The notes: generated by a model not told the origin, from the sequence alone. Counted from the first letter of the stretch, positions 12,914-49,073 are shown. The stretch is DNA of 64,000 nt from Escherichia coli (GCF_048403405.1 NZ_CP183129.1), one strand, 5' to 3'. Program-made: numbers and translations.

Positions 12914-12937
12914 TCAGTAGCGCTGTCTGGCAACATA

Positions 12938-12965
12938 AACGGTCCCTTCTGGGGCCGTTTTTTTG
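12938..12965 (+). terminator. adhE intrinsic terminator
   Basis: aaacggtcccttctggggccgttttttt hairpin plus T-run 25 nt after the stop. Confidence 0.6.
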
Positions 12966-13215
12966 TTTTACCCAAAGCAACTTTCCCATAAACCGACAGC
13001 ATTTGCCTTCATCATATTTACGGCGATGTATAACGCCTACACACAGCGATATTGTACTTTACAGGTCACAAGTCAACGTCACTGTAAAAGCGCTCTGTGA
13101 GGGGTATAGTGGCGTTAAAGAACTGTCGAGAAGGGTATATACACCGGATGAAGTGAGTAAAACGAACTGACAGGATAAAAGCGCCCTGCTCACCCTGTCA
13201 GTAAAGAAATTCTTA

Positions 13216-13833: not shown

Positions 13834-14436
13834 CAGCCACAGGCCCTCAATGATATGAATTAAAGTTGGCTGGAGTTTATCATAATTCGTCAGTTTTTCA
13901 GCTCAACAGTATGCACAGAAGTGGTATATGCGTTCTCCCTTACGAAGCCTTGCATAATCCTTCTGAGCTATCATTACAACTGCCTCGCTTGTTATAAGCG
14001 GGTAAATGACTGCTGGTAACTATTCACAATCTTTAACCTGTTGCGCAAGTAATAGCCCTCTGTTGACCTCCAGGAGATAGTGCAATACTAAGTCCCTGCT
14101 CTTATTGCGACTGTTCTACTTTTCATCATTCGCTTAATAGGGAATTCTCGTAAACACGACTAATACAGAAGACTGAAAGGTCGTCAGCCTACGATAATCT
14201 CCCCATAAAATGTGACATGAATCAGGAAGTTTTAACCTCACGTGCTGCGAAATCATCGGCGCAAATAGGGCTATATGCCGCGTCTTTTCTGGCTAATTTT
14301 ATGAAAAGATATTTATTGGCGGCACAAAATAAAGAACAATTTTGAATTCCTTACATTCCTGGCTATTGCACAACTGAATTTAAGGCTCTATTATTACCTC
14401 AACAAACCACCCCAATATAAGTTTGAGATTACTACA

Positions 14437-14850
14437 ATGAGCGAAGCACTTAAAATTCTGAACAACATCCGTACTCTTCGTGCGCAGGCAAGAGAATGTA
14501 CACTTGAAACGCTGGAAGAAATGCTGGAAAAATTAGAAGTTGTTGTTAACGAACGTCGCGAAGAAGAAAGCGCGGCTGCTGCTGAAGTTGAAGAGCGCAC
14601 TCGTAAACTGCAGCAATATCGCGAAATGCTGATCGCTGACGGTATTGACCCGAACGAACTGCTGAATAGCCTTGCTGCCGTTAAATCTGGCACCAAAGCT
14701 AAACGTGCTCAGCGTCCGGCAAAATATAGCTACGTTGACGAAAACGGCGAAACTAAAACCTGGACTGGTCAGGGCCGTACTCCAGCTGTAATCAAAAAAG
14801 CAATGGATGAGCAAGGTAAATCCCTCGACGATTTCCTGATCAAGCAATAA
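14437..14850 (+). CDS. hns: nucleoid-associated protein H-NS
   Basis: 137 aa, [20 protein letters not shown]..., C-terminal [12 protein letters not shown]-binding motif. Confidence 0.97.
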
Positions 14851-14873
14851 TCTTTTGTAGATTGCACTTGCTT

Positions 14874-14903
14874 AAAAATCCCGCCATCGGCGGGATTTTT
14901 TAT
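14874..14903 (+). terminator. hns intrinsic terminator
   Basis: aaaaatcccgccatcggcgggatttttt hairpin plus T-run. Confidence 0.7.
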
Positions 14904-14940
14904 TGTCCGGTTTAAGACAATTTAATAAGAATAAGCTATA

Positions 14941-14970
14941 AAAAAACGGCGTCGATTGCTCAACGCCGTT
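14941..14970 (-). terminator. galU intrinsic terminator
   Basis: On the minus strand, hairpin cggcgttgagcaatcgacgccg followed by a T-run, directly after the galU stop. Confidence 0.6.
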
Positions 14971-14994
14971 TCGTGGATAACACCGATACGGATG

Positions 14995-15903
14995 TTACTT
15001 CTTAATGCCCATCTCTTCTTCAAGCCAGGCTTTAAATTCCGTGCCAAGGGTGTTATGACGAATACCGTATTCAACGAAGGCCTGCATGTAACCTAATTTA
15101 TTACCGCAGTCATGGCTCTTCCCTTTCATATGATAGGCTTCCACCGTTTCTTTTTCGATCAGCATATCAATTGCGTCGGTGAGCTGAATTTCATCACCAG
15201 CTCCCGGAGGAGTTTTTGCCAGCAACGGCCAAATATCCGCGCTAAGTACGTAACGACCCACAATAGCGAGATTAGACGGCGCAACATCCGCTTTCGGTTT
15301 TTCTACCACACCAACCATCGGTACGCTTTCACCCGGCGCTAATTCAACGCCTTTGCAATCCACAACGCCATATGCGGTAACATCAGCAACCGGTTCAACC
15401 ATGATCTGGCTATGACCCGTTTCATCAAAGCAGCGGATCATCTCTGCCAGGTTATCCTGTGACAAATCGGATTCATATTCATCCAGAATAACGTCAGGCA
15501 AAATAACAGCCACAGGTTCATCACCCACTACCGGGTGAGCACACAATACCGCATGTCCCAGGCCTTTCGCCAGCCCCTGACGAACTTGCATAATAGTCAC
15601 GTGCGGCGGACAAATAGACTGCACTTCATCAAGCAGTTGACGTTTTACACGTTTTTCCAGCATTGCTTCCAGTTCAAAACTGGTATCAAAGTGGTTTTCA
15701 ATCGAGTTTTTAGATGAGTGAGTAACCAGCACAATTTCAGTAATGCCAGCCGCAATACATTCATTCACGACGTATTGAATTAATGGCTTATCGACAAGTG
15801 GCAGCATCTCTTTCGGGATGGCTTTCGTCGCCGGCAACATCCTGGTTCCTAATCCCGCAACGGGGATAACGGCTTTTTTGACTTTCGTATTAATGGCAGC
15901 CAT
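14995..15903 (-). CDS. galU: UTP--glucose-1-phosphate uridylyltransferase
   Basis: 302 aa, N-terminal [26 protein letters not shown] nucleotidyltransferase motif. Confidence 0.96.
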
Positions 15904-16104
15904 TTAAATTCTCCTGGACTGTTCGTGTTTTGAACGTGTTCATATTTCTGTATCGCATCCCAGTATATCAGCACCCCGAAGGGGCTAAGTTCTGAAAAGG
16001 AGGCGAGTTAGCATAATTAAGACAATTACTTATACGAATGGCGACGATAGTAACACCAGCCGACATTAGCAGGTAATGCAAATTTAGCCCGCGTTATCGT
16101 TTGC

Positions 16105-17118
16105 TCATTCTGCAGACAACATCAAGCGAAGCCGACCACCGGTTCCCCATATTTGGCATTGCCAGGCATCGCATCGCTGGCTCAATTGATTCAAATAAGC
16201 GTTACCTAAAGTGCCTAACGGAACACCATTACTGATTTGCACCTGGTGTTCGCCAGTATTTAATGTCGCATTCAGACCCGCAGAAACCAGAATGAGATTT
16301 TTCAGTTCGCGATGATAATAGCCAACTAATAGCGGAAACTGCCCCGGTAGATTGGCCTGACGGAGTAAATGGTTTACCTGCTTCAATAACGCGCCCAACT
16401 CTGGCAACCGTTGATTTTGATGTGCAAGCTGTTCCTGTAATAATCCGTTAAACAATGCGCGTAATAACAAGGCAGCAAGTACGCCATTATGTCCAGCTCG
16501 GGTGACATCAAGGCAATAAAATGCCAGATCGTTTTCCGAAAGTGCGGCAATATCAAGCACCAGGCCGGGTTTGTCCGCGGCAACCAATTGACGATAATTA
16601 ACCCGGCAATGGGAAATCACCTGCTGAACCGGCGGTTGCAATTCCTGTAATAATTTCGCCGCTGCGGCAGGGTTATCAACCATTGCATCCCAGTCGCGAA
16701 AAAGCCTCTCCTCTTCCTCAACGCGGGAATTAAACATGCTGGGATAGAGACAGGCAAAAACCATCTCGCGCAAGCGATTCAGATCTTTAACTGGTTTCAG
16801 CAAAACATCTTCAACGCCCAGACGTAACGCTTTGGCAATATCTGCCATATTTTCAGTGGCAGATATCACCAGAACAGGTGTCTGGTCGCCTCTGTTACGT
16901 ATATGCTCCAGCAGTTTAAGCCCGTTCATTCGTGGCATCGCGATATCACATATCATCAGGTCTGGAGTGAAACCTCCCAGCAACTCAAGGGCATCCACCC
17001 CATCAGCCGCCAGTACCGTTGTCGCTCCCAATGAGGAAAACCACGAATCCAGAAGCGAGCGAAATACCTGCTCATCTTCAACAATGAGAATCTGTTTTCC
17101 GACCAATGGCTGCGTCAT
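16105..17118 (-). CDS. rssB: response regulator RssB (RpoS proteolysis adaptor)
   Basis: 337 aa; N-terminal receiver domain (ILIVEDEQ...D) with C-terminal PP2C-like domain. Confidence 0.93.
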   Translation of the reverse strand: MTQPLVGKQILIVEDEQVFRSLLDSWFSSLGATTVLAADGVDALELLGGFTPDLMICDIAMPRMNGLKLLEHIRNRGDQTPVLVISATENMADIAKALRLGVEDVLLKPVKDLNRLREMVFACLYPSMFNSRVEEEERLFRDWDAMVDNPAAAAKLLQELQPPVQQVISHCRVNYRQLVAADKPGLVLDIAALSENDLAFYCLDVTRAGHNGVLAALLLRALFNGLLQEQLAHQNQRLPELGALLKQVNHLLRQANLPGQFPLLVGYYHRELKNLILVSAGLNATLNTGEHQVQISNGVPLGTLGNAYLNQLSQRCDAWQCQIWGTGGRLRLMLSAE

Positions 17119-17209
17119 GTTCTCTCCCCTGACTGGCTTTACTCAATAGTGGCATGCTATTGCCACCTGCGCCTGTCAGAATTAACTTAAGTGTAGATAA
17201 AAATTCTGG

Positions 17210-18115
17210 TCAAATGTTGGTGCGTACCAACGGCAAAAGTTCATCCATTTTCTTTTCCACTGCCAGCTGCCCAGCCGCAATGGCAGCGTGCGCGCGATGG
17301 AAATCAAGCGTAGATATTTGCGGGCAAACAGGTTGAATCAGAATATCGGGCGGATCACCTGCCATGCGGTTCCTTTTAAGGCGGTTCTCCAGCACCTGGA
17401 TAGAAGTGGTCATAATCTCTGTTGCCGTTGGCGCTGTCACCGCCCGACGTGTCGTTATGCTGCCCAACCTTTCTTTCAGACGCGCATGCCACGGCAGAGA
17501 ATCACCATTCTCGCTATTTTCTTCACTAACATTAAAGGAGAGCAGATCTTGTTGCATCAAATGAGCATCGTGCTGCAGGTCGACCGCTATCACAATATCA
17601 GCACCCAATGCACGCGTGAGCGAAATAGGAATTGGGTTAACTACAGCGCCATCAACCAGCCAGTAGCCGTTATGCGCAACGGGTGCCATTAGTCCTGGAA
17701 TACTGCATGATGCACGAATAGCAAGATGGAGATCGCCTTCAGTAAACCATAATTCGCGCCCAGTACTTAAATTGGTGGCAACAGCCGCGAAGCGACGGGA
17801 ACAATTTTCGATCTCTGTTTCCGGCATTATTTCGCGATATTGATTGAAGACACGCTCGCCGCGCAGTAACCCACCGCGCTGCCAGGAGAGATCCATCAGG
17901 CGTAAAACATCCCAATAACTGAAAGAGGTCACCCAATCTTCCAGCGCAGATAGTCGATCGCATGCATAGGCAGCGCCCACCAGCGAACCAATTGAACATC
18001 CTGCAACGATATCAATTTCAATACCCACTTTTTTTAGCGCATTAATAACGCCAATATGCGACCAACCTCTCGCCGCGCCAGATCCCAGCGCCAGCCCTAT
18101 TTTTATCTTTCTCAT
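17210..18115 (-). CDS. rssA: patatin-like phospholipase
   Basis: 301 aa, GSGAARG oxyanion motif and GCSIGS nucleophile motif. Confidence 0.9.
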   Translation of the reverse strand: MRKIKIGLALGSGAARGWSHIGVINALKKVGIEIDIVAGCSIGSLVGAAYACDRLSALEDWVTSFSYWDVLRLMDLSWQRGGLLRGERVFNQYREIMPETEIENCSRRFAAVATNLSTGRELWFTEGDLHLAIRASCSIPGLMAPVAHNGYWLVDGAVVNPIPISLTRALGADIVIAVDLQHDAHLMQQDLLSFNVSEENSENGDSLPWHARLKERLGSITTRRAVTAPTATEIMTTSIQVLENRLKRNRMAGDPPDILIQPVCPQISTLDFHRAHAAIAAGQLAVEKKMDELLPLVRTNI

Positions 18116-18227
18116 TATTCCCGCAAGATTCCCCTGGAATGCAATCGTAGCAACATCGCTACTGCTCGGTTAACATAGTGCTACTCAGGCGGTTAATACG
18201 CCGTTATTGTTTCCAGGGAGATTATTT

Positions 18228-18686
18228 GTGTCTCAGCTTTGTCCCTGTGGTAGTGCTGTCGAGTATAGCCTATGTTGCCACCCTTATGTGTCTGGTGAAA
18301 AGGTTGCACCTGATCCAGAACATCTCATGCGTTCGCGTTACTGCGCTTTTGTGATGAAAGACGCAGATTATTTAATAAAGACCTGGCATCCATCTTGTGG
18401 AGCGGCGGCGTTACGTGCCGAATTGATTGCCGGATTTGCGCATACTGAATGGTTAGGATTGACCGTATTTGAACATTGTTGGCAGGACGTCGACAATATC
18501 GGATTTGTCAGTTTTGTTGCGCGATATACCGAAGGTGGCAAAACAGGTGCAATCATTGAACGTTCGCGATTTTTGAAAGAAAACGGTCAATGGTACTATA
18601 TTGACGGTACACGTCCGCAGTTTGGCCGCAACGATCCCTGCCCTTGTGGTTCAGGTAAAAAATTTAAAAAGTGCTGCGGCCAATAA
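18228..18686 (+). CDS. ychJ: SEC-C metal-binding domain protein YchJ
   Basis: GTG start giving (M)SQLCPCGS...; two CPCGS SEC-C motifs at N- and C-termini; the ORF-track entry begins 21 nt upstream. Confidence 0.85.
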
Positions 18687-18735
18687 TGGTTGACGGTACG
18701 GTTTAGCAAACACTCTCAACAAGGTTTTTCCAGCA

Positions 18736-19578
18736 ATGCATTCACTCCAACGTAAAGTTCTGCGTACTATTTGTCCGGACCAAAAAGGTCTGATCGCACG
18801 TATTACCAATATTTGCTACAAGCACGAGTTAAATATCGTGCAGAACAATGAATTTGTTGATCACCGTACCGGGCGCTTTTTTATGCGCACGGAACTGGAA
18901 GGAATTTTTAATGATTCCACCCTGCTGGCGGATCTCGATAGCGCATTGCCAGAAGGCTCCGTACGTGAGCTGAATCCTGCCGGTCGTCGCCGGATAGTGA
19001 TTCTGGTCACTAAAGAGGCGCATTGCCTCGGCGATTTGTTGATGAAAGCCAATTATGGCGGCCTGGATGTCGAAATCGCGGCAGTTATTGGTAACCACGA
19101 TACTTTACGTTCTCTGGTTGAGCGTTTTGATATTCCATTTGAGCTGGTAAGCCATGAAGGGTTAAGCCGCAACGAGCACGATCAAAAGATGGCGGATGCC
19201 ATTGATGCTTATCAACCTGACTATGTGGTACTGGCGAAGTATATGCGGGTATTAACGCCGGAATTTGTGGCACGCTTCCCGAATAAGATCATCAATATTC
19301 ACCATTCATTCCTGCCAGCGTTTATCGGCGCACGTCCTTATCACCAGGCCTATGAACGTGGCGTGAAGATTATTGGCGCAACCGCTCACTATGTGAATGA
19401 CAATCTGGACGAAGGTCCAATCATCATGCAGGACGTTATTCATGTCGATCATACCTACACAGCTGAAGATATGATGCGCGCAGGTCGTGACGTCGAGAAA
19501 AACGTCTTAAGTCGCGCACTCTACAAAGTACTGGCGCAGCGCGTCTTTGTTTACGGTAATCGGACGATTATTCTTTAA
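18736..19578 (+). CDS. purU: formyltetrahydrofolate deformylase
   Basis: 280 aa, N-terminal ACT domain plus formyltransferase domain (HHSFLP). Confidence 0.95.
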   Translation: MHSLQRKVLRTICPDQKGLIARITNICYKHELNIVQNNEFVDHRTGRFFMRTELEGIFNDSTLLADLDSALPEGSVRELNPAGRRRIVILVTKEAHCLGDLLMKANYGGLDVEIAAVIGNHDTLRSLVERFDIPFELVSHEGLSRNEHDQKMADAIDAYQPDYVVLAKYMRVLTPEFVARFPNKIINIHHSFLPAFIGARPYHQAYERGVKIIGATAHYVNDNLDEGPIIMQDVIHVDHTYTAEDMMRAGRDVEKNVLSRALYKVLAQRVFVYGNRTIIL

Positions 19579-19659
19579 TCGCCAGCAAAAATAACTGGTT
19601 ACCTTTAATCCGTTACGGATGAAAATTACGCAACCAGTTCATTTTTCTCAACGTAACAC

Positions 19660-19687
19660 TTTACAGCGGCGCGTCATTTGATATGAT
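19660..19687 (+). promoter_or_regulatory. tyrT promoter (-35 tttaca, 16 bp spacer, -10 tatgat, GC-rich discriminator gcgccccgc)
   Basis: Hexamers read directly in sequence about 50 nt upstream of the first tRNA-Tyr. Confidence 0.75.
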
Positions 19688-19737
19688 GCGCCCCGCTTCC
19701 CGATAAGGGAGCAGGCCAGTAAAAAGCATTACCCCGT

Positions 19738-19822
<85 letters not shown>

Positions 19823-19856
19823 TCTCAAGCATTACCTCAAAATTTGAATTACCCTT

Positions 19857-19941
<85 letters not shown>

Positions 19942-20160
19942 TCACTTTCAAAAGTCCCTGAACTCTCAAACGAATCCGTAATTAAATATTCTGCCCAAGC
20001 GGGGAAGGATGAGAAGCTTCGACCAAGGTTCGACTCGAGCGCCAGCGAGAGAGCGTTGCCGCAGGCAACGACCCGAAGGGCGAAGCGCGCAGCGCTGAGT
20101 AATCCTTCCCCCACCACCATCACTTCCTGTAAATACTCAAAACCTGTTACTCCGAGCTAA
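19942..20160 (+). ncRNA. rtT: rtT-like tRNA-operon distal repeat region (contains tpr)
   Basis: Contains a second copy of the tRNA 3'-end-like motif aatccttcccccaccaccatcac (about 20100..20122) and repeated attctgcccaa; extent approximate. Confidence 0.45.
20009..20098 (+). CDS. tpr: protamine-like small basic protein
   Basis: 29-codon [32 protein letters not shown] inside the rtT repeat; arginine-rich. Confidence 0.5.
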
Positions 20161-20303
20161 TTCTGCCCAATGGCACCGCGTTTACCGGACCTACAATATC
20201 CTCCCCTGAAGTTCGGATAAGCGAAGCGCATCCGACAACTCACCCCGTACCGTGCCCATAAAAAAACCCCGCCGAAGCGGGGTCTATGCAAACTAAAATT
20301 CGC

Positions 20304-20981
20304 TTAGTGACGAGCGCGCACCAGCTGATACTTACGTGTCAAATACTCCACCGGTACGCTCCAGATGTGCACCAGACGTGAGAACGGGAACAGCAAGAAT
20401 AACGTCATCCCCAGCACCAGGTGCAGACGGAAGATAAACGCCACACCATCAAGGTGTTGAGAAGCGCCACCGTGGAAGGTCACTACCGACTGCGCCCAGC
20501 CAACCAGTTTCATCATCTCGCTACCGTCCATATGCTGGGCTGAGAACGGAATGGTCAGCAAGCCCAGCGCGCACTGGATAACGAGCAGCGACAGGATCAG
20601 GATATCCGCTCCGGTAGTCGTTGCACGCACGCGTGGGCTGAACAGACGACGTTTCAGCAACAGCACGCCGCCAATCAGACACAGCACGCCGCTGGCACCA
20701 CCAGCAAACATCGCCATTTTTTGTTTCACTTCAATCGGCAGCCAGGCTTCATACATCCAGTGCGGCGTCAGCATACCGAAGAAGTGACCGACAAAAATCC
20801 CCAGAATACCGATATGGAACAGGTTCGACGCCAGGTTCATCCCTTTGCGATCCAGCATCTGGCTGGACGCCGCGCGCCAGGTGTACTGCCCGTAGTCATA
20901 ACGCAGCCAGCTACCAATCAGGAAGACCGCCCCGGCTATGTACGGGTAGATATCAAAGAAGAACATATTCAGGAATTGCAT
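20304..20981 (-). CDS. narI: respiratory nitrate reductase gamma subunit (cytochrome b)
   Basis: 225 aa, 5 TM helices, heme-ligand histidines. Confidence 0.95.
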
Positions 20982-21691
20982 TAGTGCTGTCCTCCGGTGG
21001 TGATATTCAGATATTGCGGCGCGACGGCACCAGCAAAGCGACGCTGATGAGCAGTGATTGCTGAATCACCGCAGCCTTTGTCAGCAAAAAACTTAACCTG
21101 CTCTTCTTCCCAGACGGCATCCAGCGCCTGCGGCGTATCGTCGCGCGCTTCGTCGGCAATTTTTTCCGCCACTTTGTCGCTGTCGATTGCGGTATTCGCC
21201 AGTTTCAGCAGCAGATCAAACAGCACGGCATAACGGCTTTCACGCTGTTGCAGACGCGCACTCAGCAATGCCAGAATCGGCGCAATATCTTTCAAACCCT
21301 CCACGGCTTCGATTTGCGGCAGCTGCGCCAGGTACTCCAGATACAGCGGCAGATGGTCGGGCAATTCGCGGCTGTTTAACTGCAAGCCGTGCTGCTCGTA
21401 CTGTGCCAGCAGGTCAACCATTGCCTGACCACGGTCGCGGGATTCCCCGTGAACATGTTCAAACAGCAACAGCGACGTGGCACGACCACGGTCGAACAGT
21501 TCGCTGTACTGCGCCTGAGCATCGAGCGGATCCATCGCCGTTAAATCGCGCAGGAAAATGCCCAGCGCATGGGCATCTTCTTTCGACAGATTTTTCGACG
21601 CGGCAATCGCCTCAAACATCTCTTGTTGATGCTGCCATAAGGCAGCATCCGGATATTCAAGGAGACGCGATACAATCACGAGTTCGATCAT
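20981..21691 (-). CDS. narJ: nitrate reductase assembly chaperone
   Basis: 236 aa; overlaps narI and narH starts and stops. Confidence 0.95.
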
Positions 21692-23226
21692 GGGTGCGGC
21701 TCCGTTTTGCTCGTTACGTCAATGGCATCGATACGGCGGCTGTTGAACAGATTGAATTTGGTATCTGAACCGTGGCAGCCATCACCAAAGGTAAAGCCGC
21801 AGCCATTTTTCTCCGGGAAGGCTTCCCGCGCCAATTCACGATGACTGCTCGGGACCACAAAGCGATCTTCGTAGTTAGCAATCGCCAGATAACGGTACAT
21901 CTCCTGTGCCTGGGCTTCGGTCAGACCGACCTCTTCCAGCGCACGGGTATCGACTTTACCGTCAACGGTTTCAGCACGTTTGTAATGACGCATCGCCAGC
22001 ATACGTTTCAGCGCGCGCAGTACTGGTTTGGTATCACCGGCGGTCAGCAGATTCGCCAGATACTGTACCGGAATACGCAGACTTTCGACGTCTGGCAGAA
22101 TGCCATTGCTGCCCAGTTCACCCGCATCTGCCGCAGACTGAATCGGCGACAGAGGCGGCACGTACCAGACCATCGGCAGTGTGCGATATTCCGGATGCAG
22201 CGGCAGCGCCAGTTTCCATTCCATCGCCATTTTATAAACCGGCGACTGCTGTGCGGCTTCAATAACGCTCAGCGGAATACCGTCTTTAATTGCCTGCTCG
22301 ATGACTTTCGGATCGTTCGGATCGAGGAACACCTCCAGCTGACGCTGGTAGAGATCTTTCTCGTTCTCGGTGCTGGCTGCACGTTCAATGGCGTCCGCAT
22401 CGTACAGCAGCACGCCGAGATAACGGATACGACCGACACAGGTTTCAGAGCACACCGTCGGCTGACCGGCTTCAATACGCGGATAGCAGAAGATGCACTT
22501 CTCAGACTTACCGCTCTTCCAGTTGAAGTAGATTTTTTTGTACGGGCATCCGGTGATGCACATACGCCAGCCACGGCATTTATCCTGGTCGATCAGGACG
22601 ATGCCATCTTCTTCACGCTTGTAAATCGCACCGCTCGGGCAGGTCGCCACACATGCCGGGTTCAGGCAGTGTTCGCACAGGCGCGGCAAATACATCATGA
22701 AGGTGTTTTCGAACTGGCTATACATCGCCTTCTGGATGTTGTCGAAGTTCTTGTCTTTCGCCAGCTTGTCAAACTCACCGCCCAGGTCATCTTCCCAGTT
22801 CGGCCCTTTTTCGATTTTCGCCATCCGTTCGCCGGTAATCAGCGAACGCGGACGGGCAATCGGCTGCGATTTGCTGCCTTCCGGCGCGGTATGCAGGTTC
22901 TGATAATCAAAATCGAACGGCTCGTAATAATCGTCGATACCCGGCAGATGCGGGTTAGCAAAGATTTTACCCAGCAGCATGGCGCGGTTACCCATGCGCG
23001 GCTGCAGTTTGCCGTTGATTTTACGAATCCAGCCGCCTTTGTATTTTTCCTGGTTTTCCCAGTCAGTCGGGAAGCCCTGGCCCGGCTTGGTTTCCACGTT
23101 GTTGAACCACGCGTATTCCACGCCTTCGCGGCTGGTCCAGACGTTTTTACAGGTAACTGAACAGGTGTGGCAGCCGATGCACTTATCGAGATTCAGCACC
23201 ATGCCGACTTGTGAACGAATTTTCAT
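21688..23226 (-). CDS. narH: respiratory nitrate reductase beta subunit (Fe-S)
   Basis: 512 aa with four Cys clusters (CxxCxxCxxxC type). Confidence 0.96.
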   Translation of the reverse strand: MKIRSQVGMVLNLDKCIGCHTCSVTCKNVWTSREGVEYAWFNNVETKPGQGFPTDWENQEKYKGGWIRKINGKLQPRMGNRAMLLGKIFANPHLPGIDDYYEPFDFDYQNLHTAPEGSKSQPIARPRSLITGERMAKIEKGPNWEDDLGGEFDKLAKDKNFDNIQKAMYSQFENTFMMYLPRLCEHCLNPACVATCPSGAIYKREEDGIVLIDQDKCRGWRMCITGCPYKKIYFNWKSGKSEKCIFCYPRIEAGQPTVCSETCVGRIRYLGVLLYDADAIERAASTENEKDLYQRQLEVFLDPNDPKVIEQAIKDGIPLSVIEAAQQSPVYKMAMEWKLALPLHPEYRTLPMVWYVPPLSPIQSAADAGELGSNGILPDVESLRIPVQYLANLLTAGDTKPVLRALKRMLAMRHYKRAETVDGKVDTRALEEVGLTEAQAQEMYRYLAIANYEDRFVVPSSHRELAREAFPEKNGCGFTFGDGCHGSDTKFNLFNSRRIDAIDVTSKTEPHP

Positions 23227-26200
23227 TTTACGCTCTCCTGTACCTGGTCATTGCCTTCGCCATCTAACCAGTCAATGTTCTTCATCTTACGCACTACAAC
23301 AAACTCATCGCGGTTAGAACCTACGGTGCCGTAGTAGTTAAAGCCGTATGCCAGATGGGCATAGCCGCCAATCATATGCGTCGGTTTCGGCGTGATACGG
23401 GTGACCGAGTTATGGATACCACCACGCTGTTGGGTAATTTCCGAACCCGGCAGGTTAACGATACGTTCCTGCGCGTGGTACATCATGGTCATCCCTGCCG
23501 GAACACGCTGGCTGACAACCGCACGGGCAGTCAGAGCACCGTTGCTGTTGAAGACTTCAATCCAGTCGTTATCGGCAATGCCCAGATCTTTGGCATCGGC
23601 TTCACTCAGCCAGACCACCGGACCACCGCGACCTAAAGTCAGCATCAGCAGGTTGTCGCTGTAGGTGGAGTGGATACCCCACTTCTGGTGCGGCGTCAGG
23701 AAGTTGAGCGCTTTTTCCGGGTTGCCGTTGGATTTCTGGCCTATCACTTCTTTCACCGAACGGGTGTCGATCGGCGGACGATAAACCAGCAGGCTTTCAC
23801 CGAAATCACGCATCCACTGGTGATCCTGATACAGCTGCTGACGGCCAGAGAGCGTACGCCACGGGATCAGCTCGTGAACGTTGGTGTAACCGGCGTTGTA
23901 AGAAACGTGTTCATCTTCAAGGCCAGACCAGGTCGGGCTGGAGATGATTTTGCGCGGCTGTGCCTGAATATCGCGGAAGCGAATCTTCTCGTCTTCTTTA
24001 TTCAGCGCCAGATGCGTATGGTCACGACCGGTAAACTCGCTCAGGGCAGCCCAGGCTTTCACGGCTACCTGACCGTTGGTTTCCGGTGCCAGCGTCAGGA
24101 TCATCTCTGCCGCATCAATGGCGGTGTTCAGCATCGGCTGACCTTTCGCCGGACCTTCCGCTTTGGTGTAGTTGAGCTTACGCAGCAGATCCATCTCGCT
24201 CTGGGTGTTCCAGGCAATCCCTTTACCGCCATTACCGATTTTCTCCATCAGCGGGCCGATAGAGGTAAAGCGTTCGTAAGTTGCCGGATAATCGCGCTCT
24301 ACGACCATAATGTGCGGTGCAGTTTTACCTGGGATCAGGTCGCATTCGCCTTTTTTCCAGTCTTTCACATCCAGCGGCTGCGCCAGTTCAGCGGCAGAGT
24401 CGTGCTGGATAGGCAGCGTGACGATGTCAGTTTCTTTACCCAGATGACCAACGCACACTTCGGAGAATTTCTTCGCGATGGCTTTGTAGATTTCCCAGTC
24501 GCTTTTCGCTTCCCAGGCCGGATCGACCGCCGCAGACAGCGGGTGAATAAACGGATGCATATCCGAAGTATTCATGTCGTCTTTTTCGTACCAGGTCGCC
24601 GTCGGCAAAATGATGTCGGAATAGAGACAGGTGCTCGACAGACGGAAGTCCAGCGTCACCACCAGATCCAGCTTGCCTTCCAGACCGTTGTCCTGCCAGT
24701 CCACTTCTTCCGGCTTCACGCCGCCCTGCTGCCCCAGGTCTTTGCCCTGGATACCGTGCTCCGTCCCCAGCAGGTACTTGAGCATAAACTCATGACCTTT
24801 ACCGGAAGAACCGAGCAGGTTAGAACGCCAGATGAACAGGTTACGCGGGTGGTTTTTACCGTTTTCCGGCTGTTCTGCCGCAAAACGGATAGAACCCTCT
24901 TTCAGGGATTTCACGGTGTAATCCACCGGATTCATGCCCGCTTTTTCCGCTTCGCGAGCGATAGTTAGCGGGTTAGTGCCTAACTGCGGCGCAGACGGCA
25001 GCCAGCCCATACGTTCTGCACGGACGTTAAAGTCGATCAGATGTCCGGTATAACGGGATTTATCCGCCATCGGCGACAACAACTCTTCTGCGGTCACGGT
25101 TTCATAACGCCACTGGCTGGAGTGGTTATAGAAGTACGAGGTGCTGTTCATGTGACGCGCCGGACGCTGCCAGTCAAGAGCAAACGCCAGCGGCTGCCAG
25201 CCAGTTTGCGGACGCAGTTTTTCCTGACCTACATAGTGCGCCCAGCCACCACCGCTCTGACCGACACAGCCGCAGAAAATCAGCATGTTGATCAGACCAC
25301 GATAGTTCATATCGAGGTGATACCAGTGGTTCAGCCCCGCACCGACGATAATCATCGAACGACCGTGCGTTTTATCCGCGTTATCGGCAAATTCACGGGC
25401 GATGCGAATAATCTGGCTGCGAGAAACGCCGGTAATCTGCTCGGCCCACGCAGGGGTGTAAGCTTTCACGTCGTCATAACTGGTTGCACAATTAACGTCG
25501 TTCAGGCCACGTTCCAGACCGTAGTTTGCCAGCGTCAGATCATAAACGGTGGTCACCAGGGCGGTGCTGCCATCAGCCAGTTGCAGGCGTTTCACCGGCA
25601 GCTTGTGCAGCAGCACGTTTTCCAGTTCCACTTTGTTGAAGTGTTCCGTGCCGTCGCCACCAAAGTACGGGAAGCCCACCTCAGCGATCTCATCCTGGCT
25701 ACCCAGCAGACTCAGTTGCAGCTCGGTTTCTTCGCCAGTTTTGCCGTCGCGCTGCTCAAGATTCCATTTGCCCTTCTCGCCCCAGCGGAAGCCAATAGAA
25801 CCGTTCGGCGCAACCATTTCGCCATTGGTATTAAAGGCGACAGTTTTCCATTCCGGATTGTTTTCCTGGCCCAGCGCATCCACCAGATCGGCAGCGCGCA
25901 GCATACGACCTGCGGCGTAGTAACCGTCGCGTTCTTCCAGCATCACCAGCATCGGCATGTCGGTGTAGCGACGCACATAGTCGGTGAAATACTGGCTTGG
26001 GTTGTCGAGGTGGAATTCACGCAGCATTACGTGGCCCATCGCCAGCGCCATTGCCGCATCGGTGCCCTGTTTCGGTGCCAGCCACAGATCGCACAGTTTG
26101 GCGATTTCAGCGTAGTCTGGTGTGACGGCAACAGTTTTGGTGCCTTTGTAACGCACTTCAGTAAAGAAGTGAGCATCCGGGGTACGCGTCTGCGGCACGT

Positions 26201-26966
26201 TTGAACCCCAGGCGATGATGTAGCTGGAGTTGTACCAGTCAGCAGATTCCGGTACGTCAGTTTGCTCGCCCCAGGTTTGCGGAGACGCAGGAGGCAGGTC
26301 GCAGTACCAGTCGTAGAAGCTTAAGCAAGTACCGCCAAGCAGCGAGAGATAGCGCGCCCCCGATGCGTAAGAAACCATCGACATTGCCGGAATTGGCGAG
26401 AAACCAGCGACACGGTCCGGGCCGTAGTTTTTGATGGTGTAAACGTTAGATGCGGCGATCAGTTCGTTCACTTCCTGCCAGGAAGAACGAACAAAACCAC
26501 CGCGTCCACGCGCCTGCTTAAAGCTTTTCGCTTTATCGGCGTCTTCAATGATAGAAGCCCATGCCTCAACCGGATCGCTATGCAGCGCCTTCGCTTCACG
26601 CCACATTTTCATCAGGCGTTTGCGCATCATCGGGTATTTCAGGCGGTTGGCACTGTAAAGATACCAGGAGTAGCTGGCACCGCGCGGGCAGCCGCGAGGT
26701 TCATGGTTTGGCAGATCCGGACGGGTACGCGGATAGTCAGTCTGCTGGGTTTCCCAGGTGACCAGACCGTTTTTGACGTAGATTTTCCAGCTGCAGGAGC
26801 CGGTGCAGTTTACCCCGTGGGTAGAGCGGACGATTTTGTCATGCTGCCAACGCTGGCGATATCCATCCTCCCAGTCGCGGTTGGTATTGAGAAGCTGGCC
26901 ATGCCCATCGGCAAAGGTTTCACCCTTCTGTTTGAAGTAGCGAAACCGGTCCAGGAATTTACTCAT
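23223..26966 (-). CDS. narG: respiratory nitrate reductase alpha subunit (molybdopterin)
   Basis: 1247 aa; N-terminal HGVNCTGSCSW Fe-S motif, molybdopterin oxidoreductase domains. Confidence 0.97.
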   Translation of the reverse strand: MSKFLDRFRYFKQKGETFADGHGQLLNTNRDWEDGYRQRWQHDKIVRSTHGVNCTGSCSWKIYVKNGLVTWETQQTDYPRTRPDLPNHEPRGCPRGASYSWYLYSANRLKYPMMRKRLMKMWREAKALHSDPVEAWASIIEDADKAKSFKQARGRGGFVRSSWQEVNELIAASNVYTIKNYGPDRVAGFSPIPAMSMVSYASGARYLSLLGGTCLSFYDWYCDLPPASPQTWGEQTDVPESADWYNSSYIIAWGSNVPQTRTPDAHFFTEVRYKGTKTVAVTPDYAEIAKLCDLWLAPKQGTDAAMALAMGHVMLREFHLDNPSQYFTDYVRRYTDMPMLVMLEERDGYYAAGRMLRAADLVDALGQENNPEWKTVAFNTNGEMVAPNGSIGFRWGEKGKWNLEQRDGKTGEETELQLSLLGSQDEIAEVGFPYFGGDGTEHFNKVELENVLLHKLPVKRLQLADGSTALVTTVYDLTLANYGLERGLNDVNCATSYDDVKAYTPAWAEQITGVSRSQIIRIAREFADNADKTHGRSMIIVGAGLNHWYHLDMNYRGLINMLIFCGCVGQSGGGWAHYVGQEKLRPQTGWQPLAFALDWQRPARHMNSTSYFYNHSSQWRYETVTAEELLSPMADKSRYTGHLIDFNVRAERMGWLPSAPQLGTNPLTIAREAEKAGMNPVDYTVKSLKEGSIRFAAEQPENGKNHPRNLFIWRSNLLGSSGKGHEFMLKYLLGTEHGIQGKDLGQQGGVKPEEVDWQDNGLEGKLDLVVTLDFRLSSTCLYSDIILPTATWYEKDDMNTSDMHPFIHPLSAAVDPAWEAKSDWEIYKAIAKKFSEVCVGHLGKETDIVTLPIQHDSAAELAQPLDVKDWKKGECDLIPGKTAPHIMVVERDYPATYERFTSIGPLMEKIGNGGKGIAWNTQSEMDLLRKLNYTKAEGPAKGQPMLNTAIDAAEMILTLAPETNGQVAVKAWAALSEFTGRDHTHLALNKEDEKIRFRDIQAQPRKIISSPTWSGLEDEHVSYNAGYTNVHELIPWRTLSGRQQLYQDHQWMRDFGESLLVYRPPIDTRSVKEVIGQKSNGNPEKALNFLTPHQKWGIHSTYSDNLLMLTLGRGGPVVWLSEADAKDLGIADNDWIEVFNSNGALTARAVVSQRVPAGMTMMYHAQERIVNLPGSEITQQRGGIHNSVTRITPKPTHMIGGYAHLAYGFNYYGTVGSNRDEFVVVRKMKNIDWLDGEGNDQVQESVK

Positions 26967-27057
26967 CGGTTTTCTCCTGTGGGAGCCTGTCGGCCCTCTG
27001 ATAAATCGACATTGCTAATGTTTAAGGGCAAGGTAACGCTCTGAAACAGCGTGGGAA

Positions 27058-27071
27058 TTGATAACGATCAA
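27058..27071 (-). promoter_or_regulatory. FNR box upstream of narG (ttgat-N4-atcaa)
   Basis: Perfect FNR consensus about 92 nt upstream of the narG start codon; NarL-type heptamers (tacccct, tacccat) further upstream at about 27102 and 27215. Confidence 0.7.
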
Positions 27072-27310
27072 GAGTGATGGGGATGAAAAATAAAGTAAAT
27101 TCCTAAGATACCCCTTTAGGATAATTAACAGCCACCACATAACAGACTGTAAATTAAGACGTTTTATACCTGTAGTTATTTAAACTATTAAGATTTTTAT
27201 GCAGATGGGTATTAAGGAGTATTCCCCATGGGTAACATATTAATGGCTCTTAATGAAATCCGGCGAAATAAGCCACTCACACATAAGTATGTTGTAACTA
27301 AAAGACAGAT

Positions 27311-27336
27311 AAAAAAAGCGCGACATCATGCCGCGC
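27311..27336 (-). terminator. narK intrinsic terminator
   Basis: Minus strand hairpin gcgcggcatgatgtcgcgc followed by TTTTTTT, 25 nt after the narK stop. Confidence 0.7.
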
Positions 27337-27359
27337 AAAGGATAATCAAATATTAAGAT

Positions 27360-28751
27360 TTATTTTTTAGAATGCCGACCATATACCGCCCAGGTAATCA
27401 CTACGCAGGCGATATAGAAAATCAAAAATACTTTCATTGCGCCGACTGGAGAACCCGTTAATGCCAGCGAGCTACCGAACGCTTTCGGGATAAAGAAGCC
27501 ACCAATCGCGCCAATCGCAGAGATGAAACCCAGCGCCGCCGCCGTGTCGGTTGCCGCTTCACGCATCGCACGTTCGTCAGAACCCCCTTCTGCTTTCACG
27601 CGATCCATTGTCAGTTTACGGAAGATCACGGAAATCATCTGGAAAGTGGAACCACTACCCAGCCCAGCTGTCAGGAACAGCGCCAGGAAGACTGCGAAGA
27701 ACGCCATGAAGCTTCCGCCCTGCCCGTCAGTCGGTAAGGTCAGGAACAGCAGGCCGCTGAAAATCGCCATCAGGATAAAGTTCACCAGTGTAACACGAGT
27801 TCCGCCCAGACGGTCAGATAATGCACCACCTGCAGAACGCGCCAGCGCACCAATAAACGGCCCGAAGAAAGCGTATTGCAGAATCTGAACATCCGGGAAC
27901 TGCGTTTTTGACAGCATCGCAAAGCCCGCGGAGAAGCCGATGAAGGAGCCGAAGGTTGCCAGATACAGCAGGCTCATAATCCACAGATGACCCCGTTTGA
28001 GTACCGGCAACTGCTCCTTGATGGAGGCTTTCGAGGTAGCAAGATCGTTCATGCCAAACCACGCCGCAATGGTGAAGATGGCAAGGAACGGCACCCATAC
28101 CCAGGACGCATTCGCCAGATACAGCTCACTCCCATCCGGCTGTTTGACACCCTGGCTACCAAATACTGCGAAAATCGACAGTGATACCACCAGCGGAGCA
28201 ACCAACTGCATGACGCTGACGCCCATGTTGCCCAGACCACCATTCAGGCCCAGCGCGCCACCCTGCTTCTGTTTCGGAAAGAAGAAGCTGATGTTTGCCA
28301 TACTGGATGCGAAGTTCGCGCCAGCAAAGCCGCACAGCAGAGAGATGATGATGAAGACGCTATAAGGCGTGGAGGTATCCTGCACGGCAAAACCCAGCCA
28401 GACGCAAGGAATAATCAGAATACCGGTGCTGAACGCCGTCCAGCGACGACCACCGAAGATAGGAACCATAAAGGAGTATGGAACACGTAATAACGCGCCA
28501 GAAACCGAAGGCAGCGCAGTCAACATAAATAGCTGATCTGTCGTAAAATTAAAACCAACTTTTGGTAAGTTCACCGCAACAGCGCTGAACAACATCCATA
28601 CGCAAAACGCCAGCAGCAGACAGGGAACGGAAATCCACAGGTTGCGGCTGGCAATACGTTGACCGCGTTGTTGCCAGAACGCAGGATCTTCCGGTCGCCA
28701 ATCTGTAATGACAGCTCCAGTAGCCCTTTCGGGGGCGGATGAGTGACTCAT
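27360..28751 (-). CDS. narK: nitrate/nitrite antiporter (MFS)
   Basis: 12-TM MFS protein; start taken at MSHSSAPERATG (third Met of the 465 aa ORF-track entry). Confidence 0.95.
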   Translation of the reverse strand: MSHSSAPERATGAVITDWRPEDPAFWQQRGQRIASRNLWISVPCLLLAFCVWMLFSAVAVNLPKVGFNFTTDQLFMLTALPSVSGALLRVPYSFMVPIFGGRRWTAFSTGILIIPCVWLGFAVQDTSTPYSVFIIISLLCGFAGANFASSMANISFFFPKQKQGGALGLNGGLGNMGVSVMQLVAPLVVSLSIFAVFGSQGVKQPDGSELYLANASWVWVPFLAIFTIAAWFGMNDLATSKASIKEQLPVLKRGHLWIMSLLYLATFGSFIGFSAGFAMLSKTQFPDVQILQYAFFGPFIGALARSAGGALSDRLGGTRVTLVNFILMAIFSGLLFLTLPTDGQGGSFMAFFAVFLALFLTAGLGSGSTFQMISVIFRKLTMDRVKAEGGSDERAMREAATDTAAALGFISAIGAIGGFFIPKAFGSSLALTGSPVGAMKVFLIFYIACVVITWAVYGRHSKK

Positions 28752-28810
28752 AGACACCTCTGATACTCGTTTCGATGTCTGCCACCTTAGTGTCTGTAGC
28801 TAAAGGCAAT

Positions 28811-28824
28811 TTGATGTAAATCAA
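28811..28824 (-). promoter_or_regulatory. FNR box upstream of narK (ttgat-N4-atcaa)
   Basis: Perfect consensus about 60 nt upstream of the narK start, in the narK/narX divergent region; a weaker second box near 28849. Confidence 0.65.
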
Positions 28825-29089
28825 ACGATAAGATAACTTTATCTATCATTGATATTTATCATTACCCATAGTGAGTACAGTGATTTCATAAAAATTATGA
28901 GATTTTTCACGGTGCTGTAGAATCCCTACCCTTACCGATGTAAAGCGACTAACCACACGGCAAATAAGGAGTAACTCTTTCCGGGTATGGGTATACTTCA
29001 GCCAATAGCCGAGAATACTGCCATTCCAGAATGTATCGTCACATTCATTAAGGTTATTGCTCATTTAAAGCCTGAAGGAAGAGGTTTAC

Positions 29090-30886
29090 ATGCTTAAACG
29101 TTGTCTCTCTCCGCTCACCCTGGTTAATCAGGTTGCGCTTATTGTGTTGCTTTCTACTGCTATTGGACTGGCAGGGATGGCAGTTTCTGGCTGGCTGGTG
29201 CAAGGCGTTCAGGGCAGCGCCCATGCGATCAACAAAGCGGGATCGCTGCGCATGCAAAGTTACCGTCTGTTGGCAGCAGTGCCATTAAGCGAGAAAGACA
29301 AGCCCTTAATTAAAGAAATGGAACAAACGGCATTTAGCGCCGAGTTAACCCGAGCAGCAGAACGAGACGGACAACTGGCGCAATTACAGGGTTTACAAGA
29401 TTACTGGCGTAATGAACTGATCCCTACGCTGATGCGTGCACAAAACCGCGAAACGGTGTCAGCGGATGTCAGCCAGTTTGTTGCCGGGCTTGATCAGCTG
29501 GTGTCTGGTTTTGACCGCACCACGGAAATGCGTATTGAGACAGTGGTGCTGGTCCATCGGGTAATGGCGGTATTTATGGCACTTTTACTGGTGTTCACTA
29601 TTATCTGGTTGCGGGCGCGATTGCTACAACCGTGGCGGCAACTGCTGGCAATGGCGAGTGCCGTCAGCCATCGCGATTTTACCCAACGCGCGAACATCAG
29701 CGGGCGCAACGAAATGGCGATGCTTGGAACTGCGTTGAACAATATGTCTGCAGAACTGGCCGAAAGTTATGCCATACTTGAGCAGCGGGTTCAGGAGAAA
29801 ACCGCCGGGCTGGAGCATAAAAATCAGATCCTCTCTTTTTTATGGCAGGCCAACCGCCGATTGCATTCCCGCGCCCCGCTGTGTGAACGCCTGTCACCTG
29901 TACTCAACGGCTTACAGAATTTGACCCTGCTACGTGATATTGAACTGCGGGTGTATGACACTGATGATGAAGAGAATCATCAGGAGTTTACCTGCCAGCC
30001 AGATATGACTTGTGATGATAAAGGCTGCCAGCTCTGCCCGCGCGGCGTATTACCCGTTGGCGATCGCGGCACAACCCTGAAGTGGCGGCTGGCTGACTCT
30101 CATACGCAGTACGGTATTTTGCTGGCGACCCTGCCGCAGGGGCGTCATCTTAGCCATGATCAACAACAACTGGTGGATACCCTGGTTGAACAACTCACCG
30201 CCACGCTGGCGTTGGATCGCCATCAGGAACGTCAGCAACAGTTGATCGTGATGGAAGAGCGTGCCACCATTGCGCGCGAACTGCATGATTCTATTGCCCA
30301 ATCTCTCTCTTGCATGAAGATGCAGGTGAGTTGTTTACAGATGCAGGGCGATGCGCTGCCAGAAAGCAGTCGCGAACTGTTAAGTCAGATCCGTAACGAA
30401 CTGAATGCATCCTGGGCGCAGTTGCGTGAATTGCTCACCACATTCCGTTTGCAGCTCACCGAGCCTGGATTACGTCCGGCGCTGGAGGCGAGTTGCGAAG
30501 AGTACAGCGCCAAATTTGGCTTCCCGGTGAAGCTGAATTATCAATTGCCGCCTCGTCTGGTGCCTTCGCATCAGGCAATCCACTTGTTGCAAATTGCCCG
30601 TGAGGCATTAAGTAACGCCCTCAAACATTCGCAAGCGAGTGAAGTCGTGGTGACGGTGGCGCAAAACGATAATCAGGTCAAACTGACCGTCCAGGATAAC
30701 GGCTGCGGCGTGCCTGAAAATGCCATCCGCAGCAATCACTACGGCATGATAATAATGCGCGACCGTGCGCAAAGTTTACGAGGCGATTGCCGCGTCCGCC
30801 GTCGTGAATCAGGTGGCACCGAAGTGGTGGTCACCTTTATTCCCGAAAAAACTTTCACAGACGTCCAAGGAGATACCCATGAGTAA
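29090..30886 (+). CDS. narX: nitrate/nitrite sensor histidine kinase
   Basis: 598 aa; two TM helices, [14 protein letters not shown]-box, C-terminal ATPase domain. Confidence 0.96.
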
Positions 30887-48957: not shown

Positions 48958-49073
48958 GTCGTTGTCTGCGGCATTTTTGCCGAGTGCCGTGTATAATAGG
49001 CAAAGTTATTTCCATTTCTGCAATCTGTTAGCAATAACAGGTTGATTATTAAGATATTAAGGTGATTTAAATC

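What the first reader, a model, noticed from the sequence alone, without database searches (positions are those of the whole stretch)
27058..28824. Perfect FNR consensus boxes upstream of both narG and narK
ttgataacgatcaa (27058..27071) and ttgatgtaaatcaa (28811..28824) both match ttgat-N4-atcaa exactly and are placed appropriately upstream of narG and narK. NarL-type heptamers are present further upstream of narG. This is the expected anaerobic/nitrate control architecture; it is noted because the sites are directly readable.
Basis: partly seen in the sequence, partly recalled or inferred. Interest (0 to 1): 0.2.

Follow-up and report, generated by a model that had tools for sequence, protein, structure and literature searches.

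The report
Known FNR sites at narG, narK
The two perfect 14-base motifs are the well-known binding sites through which the oxygen sensor FNR switches on the E. coli nitrate-respiration genes narG and narK, so the finding is correct but ordinary.

Summary
Both motifs are present exactly as described: 27058-27071 TTGATAACGATCAA and 28811-28824 TTGATGTAAATCAA. The window is E. coli chromosome (purU-tyrTV-narIJHG-narK / narXL).

- **Chance:** the window holds three perfect TTGAT-N4-ATCAA matches, against 0.07 expected.
- **Match to K-12:** the narG control region is identical to K-12 MG1655 from about -290 to the ATG. The narX-narK spacer differs at two bases, neither in a box.
- **Published evidence:** K-12 ChIP-seq (Myers 2013) lists these two 14-mers as FNR-bound, centred at -41.5, at FNR-activated operons.
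- **Promoter geometry:** with FNR at -41.5, conserved -10 hexamers fall at the right place, and NarL heptamers fall at -89, -185, -195 and -208, matching the published -89 and -195 footprints.
- **New evidence here:** 46 of 46 orthologous loci from other species keep a perfect box before narK, and 38 of 39 keep one before narG, while the N4 spacer and flanks drift. The same loci have no perfect site in 258,485 other positions, and the narU/narZ paralogues lack the box.

Verdict: observation confirmed, interpretation supported, already known, low interest. Side observations: a third perfect box inside purU is unbound in K-12, and this strain lacks a 123-bp repeat element that K-12 has after the narK stop codon.

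The parts
27058..27071 (-). FNR box of the narG promoter (TTGATCGTTATCAA on the gene strand). Perfect consensus; centre 98.5 bp upstream of the narG ATG, which is -41.5 from the inferred start site.
   Evidence: Identical to K-12. ChIP-seq bound and placed at -41.5 in K-12. Perfect box in 38 of 39 orthologous loci.
27030..27035 (-). Inferred narG -10 hexamer TACCTT (-12 to -7 if FNR is at -41.5).
   Evidence: Read from the sequence. The T, A and final T are conserved at a fixed distance from the box across 39 species (consensus TAcctT).
27023..27023 (-). Inferred narG transcription start (A). Derived from the published -41.5 position, not measured here.
   Evidence: arithmetic with Myers 2013 Table 1.
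27109..27115 (+). NarL heptamer TACCCCT centred at -89, inverted relative to narG. This is the high-affinity NarL-P footprint region.
   Evidence: published footprint at -89; loosely conserved across species as 'gG.gGTAt'.
27205..27234 (-). Cluster of three NarL heptamers: TACCCAT (-185, 27205-27211), TACTCCT (-195, 27215-27221) and TACCCAT (-208, 27228-27234). This is the -195 NarL-P footprint region.
   Evidence: published footprint at -195. The -195 heptamer sits at the same ungapped distance from the FNR box in 32 of 39 species.
23223..26966 (-). narG coding sequence (nitrate reductase A alpha subunit), the first gene of narGHJI.
28811..28824 (-). FNR box of the narK promoter (TTGATTTACATCAA on the gene strand). 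Perfect consensus; centre 66.5 bp upstream of the narK ATG, which is -41.5 from the inferred start site.
   Evidence: Identical in K-12. ChIP-seq bound and placed at -41.5. Perfect box in 46 of 46 orthologous loci. PWM rank 1 in the window.
28784..28789 (-). Inferred narK -10 hexamer TAAGGT (-13 to -8 if FNR is at -41.5); inferred start site at 28776.
   Evidence: Read from the sequence; conserved as 'Taa.gT' at a fixed distance from the box.
28849..28862 (-). Distal FNR-like site (ATGATAAATATCAA on the gene strand, 1 mismatch), 38 bp upstream of the main box, which would be -79.5.
   Evidence: PWM rank 6. At <=2 mismatches it is found only in the E. coli and E. albertii loci, not in other genera. 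Myers Table 1 counts only one FNR site at narK.
28863..28869 (+). NarL-consensus heptamer TACCCAT at about -90 of narK, inverted. Further heptamers lie at 28967-28973 (TACTCCT, -194) and 28987-28993 (TACCCAT, -214).
   Evidence: Enrichment in this spacer is modest: 3 observed against 0.56 expected, reached by 34 of 2000 shuffles. Their function at narK was not checked against primary footprints.
27360..28751 (-). narK coding sequence (nitrate/nitrite antiporter, 463 aa from the ATG at 28751), with stop codon.
27318..27336 (-). Intrinsic terminator hairpin after narK. [quoted passage not shown]
   Evidence: stem, loop and T-run; K-12 annotation of narS; Wang et al..

Best explanation
The two boxes are the FNR operators of two separate class II FNR-dependent promoters in the E. 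coli nitrate-respiration locus. Without oxygen, the [4Fe-4S] FNR dimer binds each palindrome centred at -41.5. There it overlaps the position of a -35 element and recruits RNA polymerase to a promoter that has a recognisable -10 hexamer (narG TACCTT, narK TAAGGT) but no good -35. Nitrate adds a second layer of control. NarX phosphorylates NarL, and NarL-P binds heptamers at -89 and around -195 of narG; in K-12, IHF is required for this activation. NarL-P also binds heptamers upstream of narK. Full expression therefore needs both anaerobiosis and nitrate. Shown here: sequence identity with the mapped K-12 sites, statistical non-randomness, promoter geometry, and strong cross-species purifying selection on the ten specified bases. 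Taken from the literature for K-12: FNR occupancy, the -41.5 position, FNR- and NarL-dependent expression, and the NarL footprints. Inferred: that the same holds in this particular strain.
For: Sequence and statistics: (3 perfect sites against 0.07 expected). Identity: the narG region is identical to K-12 from about -290 to the ATG, and the narK region has 2 SNPs at -144 and -108, outside the boxes. Literature: Myers 2013 Table 1 lists narGHJI and narK as directly FNR-activated with the site at -41.5, and Table S6 lists both exact 14-mers as ChIP-positive. In their fnr-mutant to wild-type expression table, narG is 0.02 and narK 0.07 (file 12). NarL-P footprints lie at -89 and -195, and FNR and IHF are required. 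narK/NarS expression is lost in fnr and narL mutants of Salmonella. Footprint: a perfect box in 46 of 46 narK and 38 of 39 narG orthologous promoters, at near-constant distance from the ATG, with varying N4 spacers. Information content is 2.00 and 1.98 bits at the half-sites, 1.56 and 1.36 at the spacer, and 0.71 and 0.65 in the flanks. There are 0 perfect sites in 258,485 other positions, and the narU/narZ paralogues lack the box. PWM without narG/narK: ranks 1 and 4. The -10 hexamers are conserved at the distance expected for -41.5.
Against: Nothing contradicts it. Three limits apply. No start site, occupancy or expression was measured for this strain. The generic sigma-70 scan did not call either promoter, as expected for class II promoters lacking a -35. 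No strict IHF consensus (WATCARNNNNTTR) was found in either spacer, so the IHF part rests on the literature only. A perfect motif alone does not guarantee binding, because the equally perfect purU site is unbound in K-12.
Confidence: 0.96

Rival explanations
1. The boxes are chance matches or 'silent' motifs that FNR does not occupy, like many predicted FNR sites in E. coli.
For: Myers 2013 found that 124 of 187 predicted sites are unbound. The third perfect site in this window, inside purU, is one of them.
Against: Both 14-mers are explicitly ChIP-positive in K-12. They are perfectly conserved in 46 of 46 and 38 of 39 species while their surroundings drift. Both sit at -41.5 from known start sites.
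Confidence: 0.01
2. The palindromes are bound mainly by another CRP/FNR-family regulator (for example CRP) rather than FNR.
For: CRP and FNR sites share the same palindrome geometry (general knowledge).
Against: Both half-sites read TTGAT/ATCAA, the published FNR consensus; the CRP core TGTGA/TCACA is recalled from general knowledge and is absent. FNR ChIP-seq peaks and loss of expression in fnr mutants are documented.
Confidence: 0.01
3. The narK-proximal box also, or instead, controls the divergent narXL operon, since it lies in the shared 338-bp spacer and a palindrome has no direction.
For: Myers labels the site 'narX/narK'. The box is 272.5 bp from the narX ATG.
Against: Across 46 species the box keeps a near-constant distance to the narK ATG (64.5-68.5 bp in Enterobacteriaceae), while the spacer length to narX varies from 299 to 376 bp. 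Myers Table 1 assigns it to narK at -41.5, and narX is not in their FNR-activated list excerpts. The conserved -10 hexamer faces narK.
Confidence: 0.04

Closest known systems
E. coli K-12 narGHJI promoter (class II FNR site at -41.5; NarL-P footprints at -89 and -195; FNR and IHF also required)
   Same: Identical sequence from about 290 bp upstream of the inferred start site to the ATG. This includes the box TTGATCGTTATCAA, the -10 hexamer TACCTT and all four NarL heptamers.
   Different: Only further upstream. K-12 carries a 122-123-bp repeat element just after the narK stop, about 330 bp upstream of the narG start site, that this strain lacks. There are also a few SNPs between -250 and -300. 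One of these creates an extra TACYYMT match at 27283-27289 (TACTTAT) that K-12 lacks (TACTAAT).
E. coli K-12 narK promoter (FNR at -41.5; NarL-dependent)
   Same: Box TTGATTTACATCAA, the distal 1-mismatch site, the heptamers and the -10 region are all identical. The box is ChIP-positive at -41.5.
   Different: Two SNPs, at window 28920 (-144; C here, T in K-12) and 28884 (-108; A here, G in K-12). Neither is in a recognised FNR or TACYYMT element.
nirB and ydhY promoters of E. coli K-12
   Same: nirB uses exactly the same 14-mer as narK (TTGATTTACATCAA), and ydhY exactly the same 14-mer as narG (TTGATCGTTATCAA). Both are ChIP-positive; Myers Table 1 places the site at -41.5 for nirB and -42.5 for ydhY.
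   Different: Different operons and different arrangements of co-regulator sites, which were not examined here.
narUZYWV paralogous locus
   Same: Homologous transporter and reductase genes in the same order.
   Different: No FNR box. The best match upstream of narU has 3-4 mismatches in 24 of 28 loci, and upstream of narZ 3-5 mismatches in all 28. The K-12 predicted site 'narZ (within narU)' is ChIP-negative.

Membership tests
Class II FNR-activated promoter | Inverted repeat matching TTGAT-N4-ATCAA | tested here: met
   10 of 10 specified bases at both sites. PWM scores are 20.5 and 14.9 bits, ranks 1 and 4 in 64 kb.
Class II FNR-activated promoter | Site centred near -41.5 relative to the transcription start | tested here: met
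   No start site was measured here. The sequence is identical to K-12, where Myers Table 1 gives -41.5 for both. Conserved -10 hexamers lie at -12 to -7 (narG) and -13 to -8 (narK) on that numbering.
Class II FNR-activated promoter | FNR occupancy in vivo or in vitro | not testable with these tools
   Documented for the identical K-12 sequences by ChIP-seq; inferred for this strain.
Class II FNR-activated promoter | FNR-dependent anaerobic activation of the downstream operon | not testable with these tools
   From the K-12 and Salmonella literature: category 1 direct activation, with fnr-mutant to wild-type expression ratios of 0.02 (narG) and 0.07 (narK).
Class II FNR-activated promoter | Evolutionary conservation of the operator at orthologous promoters | tested here: met
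   46 of 46 (narK) and 38 of 39 (narG) loci are perfect. The half-sites are invariant while the spacer and flanks vary, and there are 0 perfect sites elsewhere in 258 kb.
NarL-activated promoter (nitrate control) | TACYYMT heptamers upstream of the core promoter, at mapped footprint positions | tested here: met
   narG has heptamers at -89, -185, -195 and -208, matching the footprints at -89 and -195. Enrichment is 5 observed against 0.54 expected, reached by 0 of 2000 shuffles, and the -195 heptamer is conserved in 32 of 39 species. For narK the enrichment is weaker (34 of 2000 shuffles), and the positions were not checked against primary footprints.
NarL-activated promoter (nitrate control) | IHF site between the distal NarL sites and the core promoter (narG) | tested here: inconclusive
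   No strict WATCARNNNNTTR match in either spacer. The IHF requirement is known only from the literature. Myers marks IHF ChIP-chip enrichment at the narX/narK site.

The most novel reading that the evidence does not exclude
Both operators have stayed at a full 10 of 10 match in essentially every sampled Enterobacterales species (46 of 46 and 38 of 39), whereas most bound FNR sites in E. coli are imperfect. This could mean selection for maximal FNR affinity at these two promoters. One possible reason is to make FNR occupancy saturating, so that NarL/nitrate alone sets the output. Another is to outcompete nucleoid proteins, since IHF is enriched at the narK site. This would be a quantitative refinement of a known system, not a new mechanism.
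Probability: 0.3. Interest if true: 0.2.

Novelty: already known. Interest (0 to 1): 0.06.

Why it matters
It matters little as a discovery, because these are among the best-characterised FNR operators in E. coli. The value of the check is as a positive control. A reader working from raw sequence located two experimentally mapped transcription-factor sites and the associated NarL heptamers at single-base accuracy. The cross-species analysis gives a clean example of a phylogenetic footprint: invariant half-sites, a drifting spacer, and absence from the paralogous locus. The same window also shows the limit of motif reading, because an equally perfect box inside purU is not bound by FNR in K-12.

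Tried and rejected
- **Generic sigma-70 and terminator scan.** It did not call either FNR-dependent promoter, and the promoter-like count was no higher than in shuffles. That is expected for class II promoters without a -35, so it does not count against the interpretation.
- **Literature searches.** Searches for 'narK promoter'+FNR+NarL+IHF and narK+FNR+'79.5' found nothing useful. I recall from memory that the distal narK site is annotated at -79.5, but I could not confirm this from a paper, and Myers counts only one site at narK.
- **Two malformed calls.** Both were rejected by the tool.
- **Rfam scan of 26900-29150 at E<=0.01.** No family matched, so the NarS sRNA annotation rests on the K-12 record and Wang et al.
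- **Strict IHF consensus scan.** No match.
- **More distant loci.** The Pseudomonas hits have no box within 400 bp of the matched narK-like gene, and Yersinia nurmii has none at <=1 mismatch. These loci are not syntenic (no adjacent narX), so they were left out of the footprint counts.
- **Rejected readings.** Chance, CRP binding and control of narXL are dealt with under the rival explanations.

Full report
**Observation.** The sequence reads TTGATAACGATCAA at 27058-27071 and TTGATGTAAATCAA at 28811-28824. A pattern search for TTGATNNNNATCAA finds three perfect matches in the 64-kb window. Dinucleotide-preserving shuffles give a mean of 0.07, and none of 100 reached three. Relaxing to two mismatches gives 51 matches against about 36 expected, so only the near-perfect class is informative.

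**What the region is.** The ORF map and a megablast against complete E. coli genomes identify the segment as E. coli chromosome. A 2,251-bp query around the finding is 100% identical to strain TUM14771 and is present in 5,415 of 5,426 genomes. The annotation there gives narI, narJ, narH and narG on the minus strand (narG is 23223-26966), narK on the minus strand (27360-28751, ATG at 28751), and narX/narL on the plus strand from 29090. purU and tyrTV lie beyond narI. The box centres lie 98.5 bp upstream of the narG ATG and 66.5 bp upstream of the narK ATG.

**Comparison with the mapped K-12 sites.**
- Aligned to MG1655, the narK-narG spacer is identical from about 290 bp upstream of the inferred start site down to the narG ATG.
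- The narX-narK spacer differs at two bases (window 28920 and 28884), neither in a box.
- Myers et al. 2013 (PMC3688515) Table 1 lists narGHJI and narK among operons directly activated by FNR, each with its top-scoring site at -41.5.
- Their Table S6 gives the exact 14-mers, TTGATTTACATCAA (narX/narK) and TTGATCGTTATCAA (narG), both under FNR ChIP-seq peaks.
- The Table S6 coordinates (older genome version) are lower than the positions I compute in NC_000913.3 by exactly 777 bp for both sites. The distance between the two sites (1,875 bp) equals the window distance (1,753 bp) plus the 122-bp block that K-12 has and this strain lacks.
- In their expression table the fnr-mutant to wild-type ratios are 0.02 for narG and 0.07 for narK.

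**Promoter geometry.** With FNR at -41.5, the starts fall at 27023 (narG) and 28776 (narK), both A on the gene strand. The hexamers TACCTT (27030-27035, -12 to -7) and TAAGGT (28784-28789, -13 to -8) then occupy the -10 position. A generic sigma-70 scan does not call these promoters. That fits class II activator-dependent promoters, which lack a -35.

**NarL heptamers.**
- On the same numbering, the NarL consensus TACYYMT occurs at -89 (inverted), -185, -195 and -208 of narG.
- Published DNase I footprints place NarL-P at a high-affinity region around -89 and a lower-affinity region around -195. Both are needed for induction, together with FNR and IHF (PMC4549865).
- The heptamers are enriched in the narK-narG spacer: 5 observed against 0.54 expected, reached by 0 of 2000 shuffles. 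They are only modestly enriched in the narX-narK spacer: 3 against 0.56, reached by 34 of 2000.
- A fifth match at 27283-27289 (-263) is specific to this strain's sequence, since K-12 reads TACTAAT there. It lies outside the mapped footprints.

**PWM scan.** I built a symmetric matrix from the 61 other ChIP-positive sites of Myers Table S6, leaving out the narG and narK entries. The narK box scores 20.5 of a possible 21.6 bits and ranks first in the window. The narG box scores 14.9 bits and ranks fourth. Between them are the adhE/ychE site at 10001-10014, which was in the training set and is ChIP-positive in K-12, and the purU site.

**Independent evidence from other species.** A scan of one genome per species with the NarK protein returned 80 loci. 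By synteny, 46 are orthologous narX<>narK(-narG) loci, from Escherichia through Citrobacter, Klebsiella, Raoultella, Enterobacter and Kosakonia to Rahnella and Limnobaculum. Another 29 were classed as narU-narZ-like paralogues (one of them is the Vibrio ruber narK-narG locus noted below), and 5 are non-syntenic.
- Every one of the 46 has a perfect box upstream of narK. It lies 64.5-68.5 bp from the ATG in Enterobacteriaceae and 88.5-90.5 bp in Rahnella and Limnobaculum.
- 38 of the 39 loci that include narG have a perfect box 93.5-113.5 bp upstream of it. Limnobaculum has one mismatch.
- The N4 spacer varies: TTAC, TTAT, ATAC, TCAT, TTGC and GTGC at narK; CGTT, CATT, CCCC, CGCC, CATC and CGTC at narG.
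- Information content is 2.00 and 1.98 bits per position at the half-sites, 1.56 and 1.36 in the spacer, and 0.71 and 0.65 in the flanking columns.
- Outside the two spacers, the same loci contain no perfect site in 258,485 positions. The narU/narZ-like loci mostly have nothing better than 3-5 mismatches.
- The -195 NarL heptamer sits at exactly the same ungapped distance from the FNR box in 32 of 39 species. This fits a constrained geometry between the distal NarL sites and the core promoter.

**Mechanism.** The evidence fits the textbook model. Anaerobically active FNR dimers bind at -41.5 and recruit RNA polymerase. NarX/NarL adds nitrate dependence through upstream heptamers, with IHF at narG. 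Salmonella data show that narK and its 3'-UTR sRNA NarS disappear in fnr or narL mutants (PMC7038943). What I showed directly is the sequence identity, non-randomness, geometry and conservation. Occupancy and regulation come from the K-12 and Salmonella literature and are inferred for this strain.

**Rivals.**
- Chance or silent motifs are excluded by ChIP-seq and conservation.
- Binding by CRP is unlikely because both half-sites read TTGAT/ATCAA, the FNR consensus, and because of the fnr-mutant phenotypes.
- Use of the narK box for the divergent narXL operon is unlikely. The box keeps a near-constant distance to narK while the distance to narX varies (spacer 299-376 bp), and the conserved -10 hexamer faces narK.

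**Verdict.** The feature is already known, so interest is low.

**Seen in passing.**
- The perfect box at 19202-19215 lies inside purU (codons 156-160). In Myers Table S6 it is a predicted site without a ChIP peak and without Fis, H-NS or IHF overlap. Only 13 of the 124 silent sites lack such an explanation.
- K-12 carries a 122-123-bp block immediately after the narK stop, inside the annotated narS sRNA, that this strain lacks. It is present at >=99% identity in 2,457 of 5,426 complete genomes and has a central inverted repeat. From memory it resembles an ERIC/IRU element. Wang et al. mention an insertion at this place in E. coli. It lies about 330 bp upstream of the narG start, beyond all mapped control sites.
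- The distal narK site (28849-28862, one mismatch) is found only in the E. coli and E. albertii loci.
- Vibrio ruber has a one-mismatch box before narK and none before narG, which follows after only 169 bp.

Noticed in passing
window 19202-19215: A third perfect FNR consensus (TTGATGCTTATCAA) lies inside the purU coding sequence (codons 156-160, peptide IDAYQP). In K-12 it is a predicted site with no FNR ChIP-seq peak and no Fis, H-NS or IHF overlap, so it is one of the few 'silent' sites not explained by occlusion. It is probably a chance intragenic match.
   Followed up: partly
window ~27357 (junction just after the narK stop codon); K-12 L001:3844-3966: This strain lacks a 122-123-bp block that K-12 carries right after the narK stop, inside the annotated narS sRNA (184 nt in K-12). 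The block is present at >=99% identity in 2,457 of 5,426 complete E. coli genomes, so it is a common presence/absence polymorphism. It has a central inverted repeat CCCAGTCACTTACT/AGTAAGCTCCTGGG and, from memory, resembles an ERIC/IRU element. It could change the length or processing of the narK 3' UTR and NarS precursor, but it lies upstream of all narG control sites.
   Followed up: partly
window 28849-28862: A distal FNR-like site at narK (ATGATAAATATCAA on the gene strand, 1 mismatch, would be -79.5). At <=2 mismatches it is found only in the E. coli and E. albertii loci, and is absent from another Escherichia sp. and all other genera. It is therefore a recent, lineage-specific addition or a chance match.
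   Followed up: partly
window 10001-10014: TTGATTTGGATCAC in the adhE/ychE intergenic region ranks 2nd by PWM. Its reverse complement, GTGATCCAAATCAA, is listed as an FNR ChIP-positive site in K-12 (Myers Table S6).
   Followed up: partly
window 49062-49075: GTGATTTAAATCAT (PWM rank 5, 14.65 bits) lies in the pth-ychF intergenic region, about 12-25 bp upstream of the ychF start. I did not see it in the part of Myers Table S6 that I read. Its significance is unknown.
   Followed up: no
window 28920 and 28884: The only two differences from K-12 in the narX-narK spacer are C for T at about -144 and A for G at about -108 of narK. Neither falls in an FNR box or a TACYYMT heptamer. The -108 position is near where IHF enrichment is reported.
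   Followed up: no
window 19215-27071 and 10014-19215, compared with K-12: The distances between the mapped FNR sites are shorter here than in K-12. From the narG box to the purU site is 7,856 bp here against 8,386 bp (530 bp less). From the purU site to the adhE site is 9,201 bp against 10,200 bp (999 bp less). These imply indels, perhaps in the tyrT/rtT repeat region and near tdk-adhE, which I did not locate.
   Followed up: no
loci L042-L072 (narU-narZ paralogues); L074 (Vibrio ruber): The paralogous narU-narZ loci lack FNR boxes (best match 3-5 mismatches in nearly all). Vibrio ruber has a 1-mismatch box 68.5 bp before narK and none before narG, which follows after only 169 bp. This suggests a single narK-narG operon there, whereas Enterobacterales have two FNR-dependent promoters.
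   Followed up: partly
window 27283-27289: An extra TACYYMT match (TACTTAT, about -263 of narG) exists in this strain but not in K-12 (TACTAAT). It lies outside the mapped NarL footprints and is probably fortuitous.
   Followed up: no
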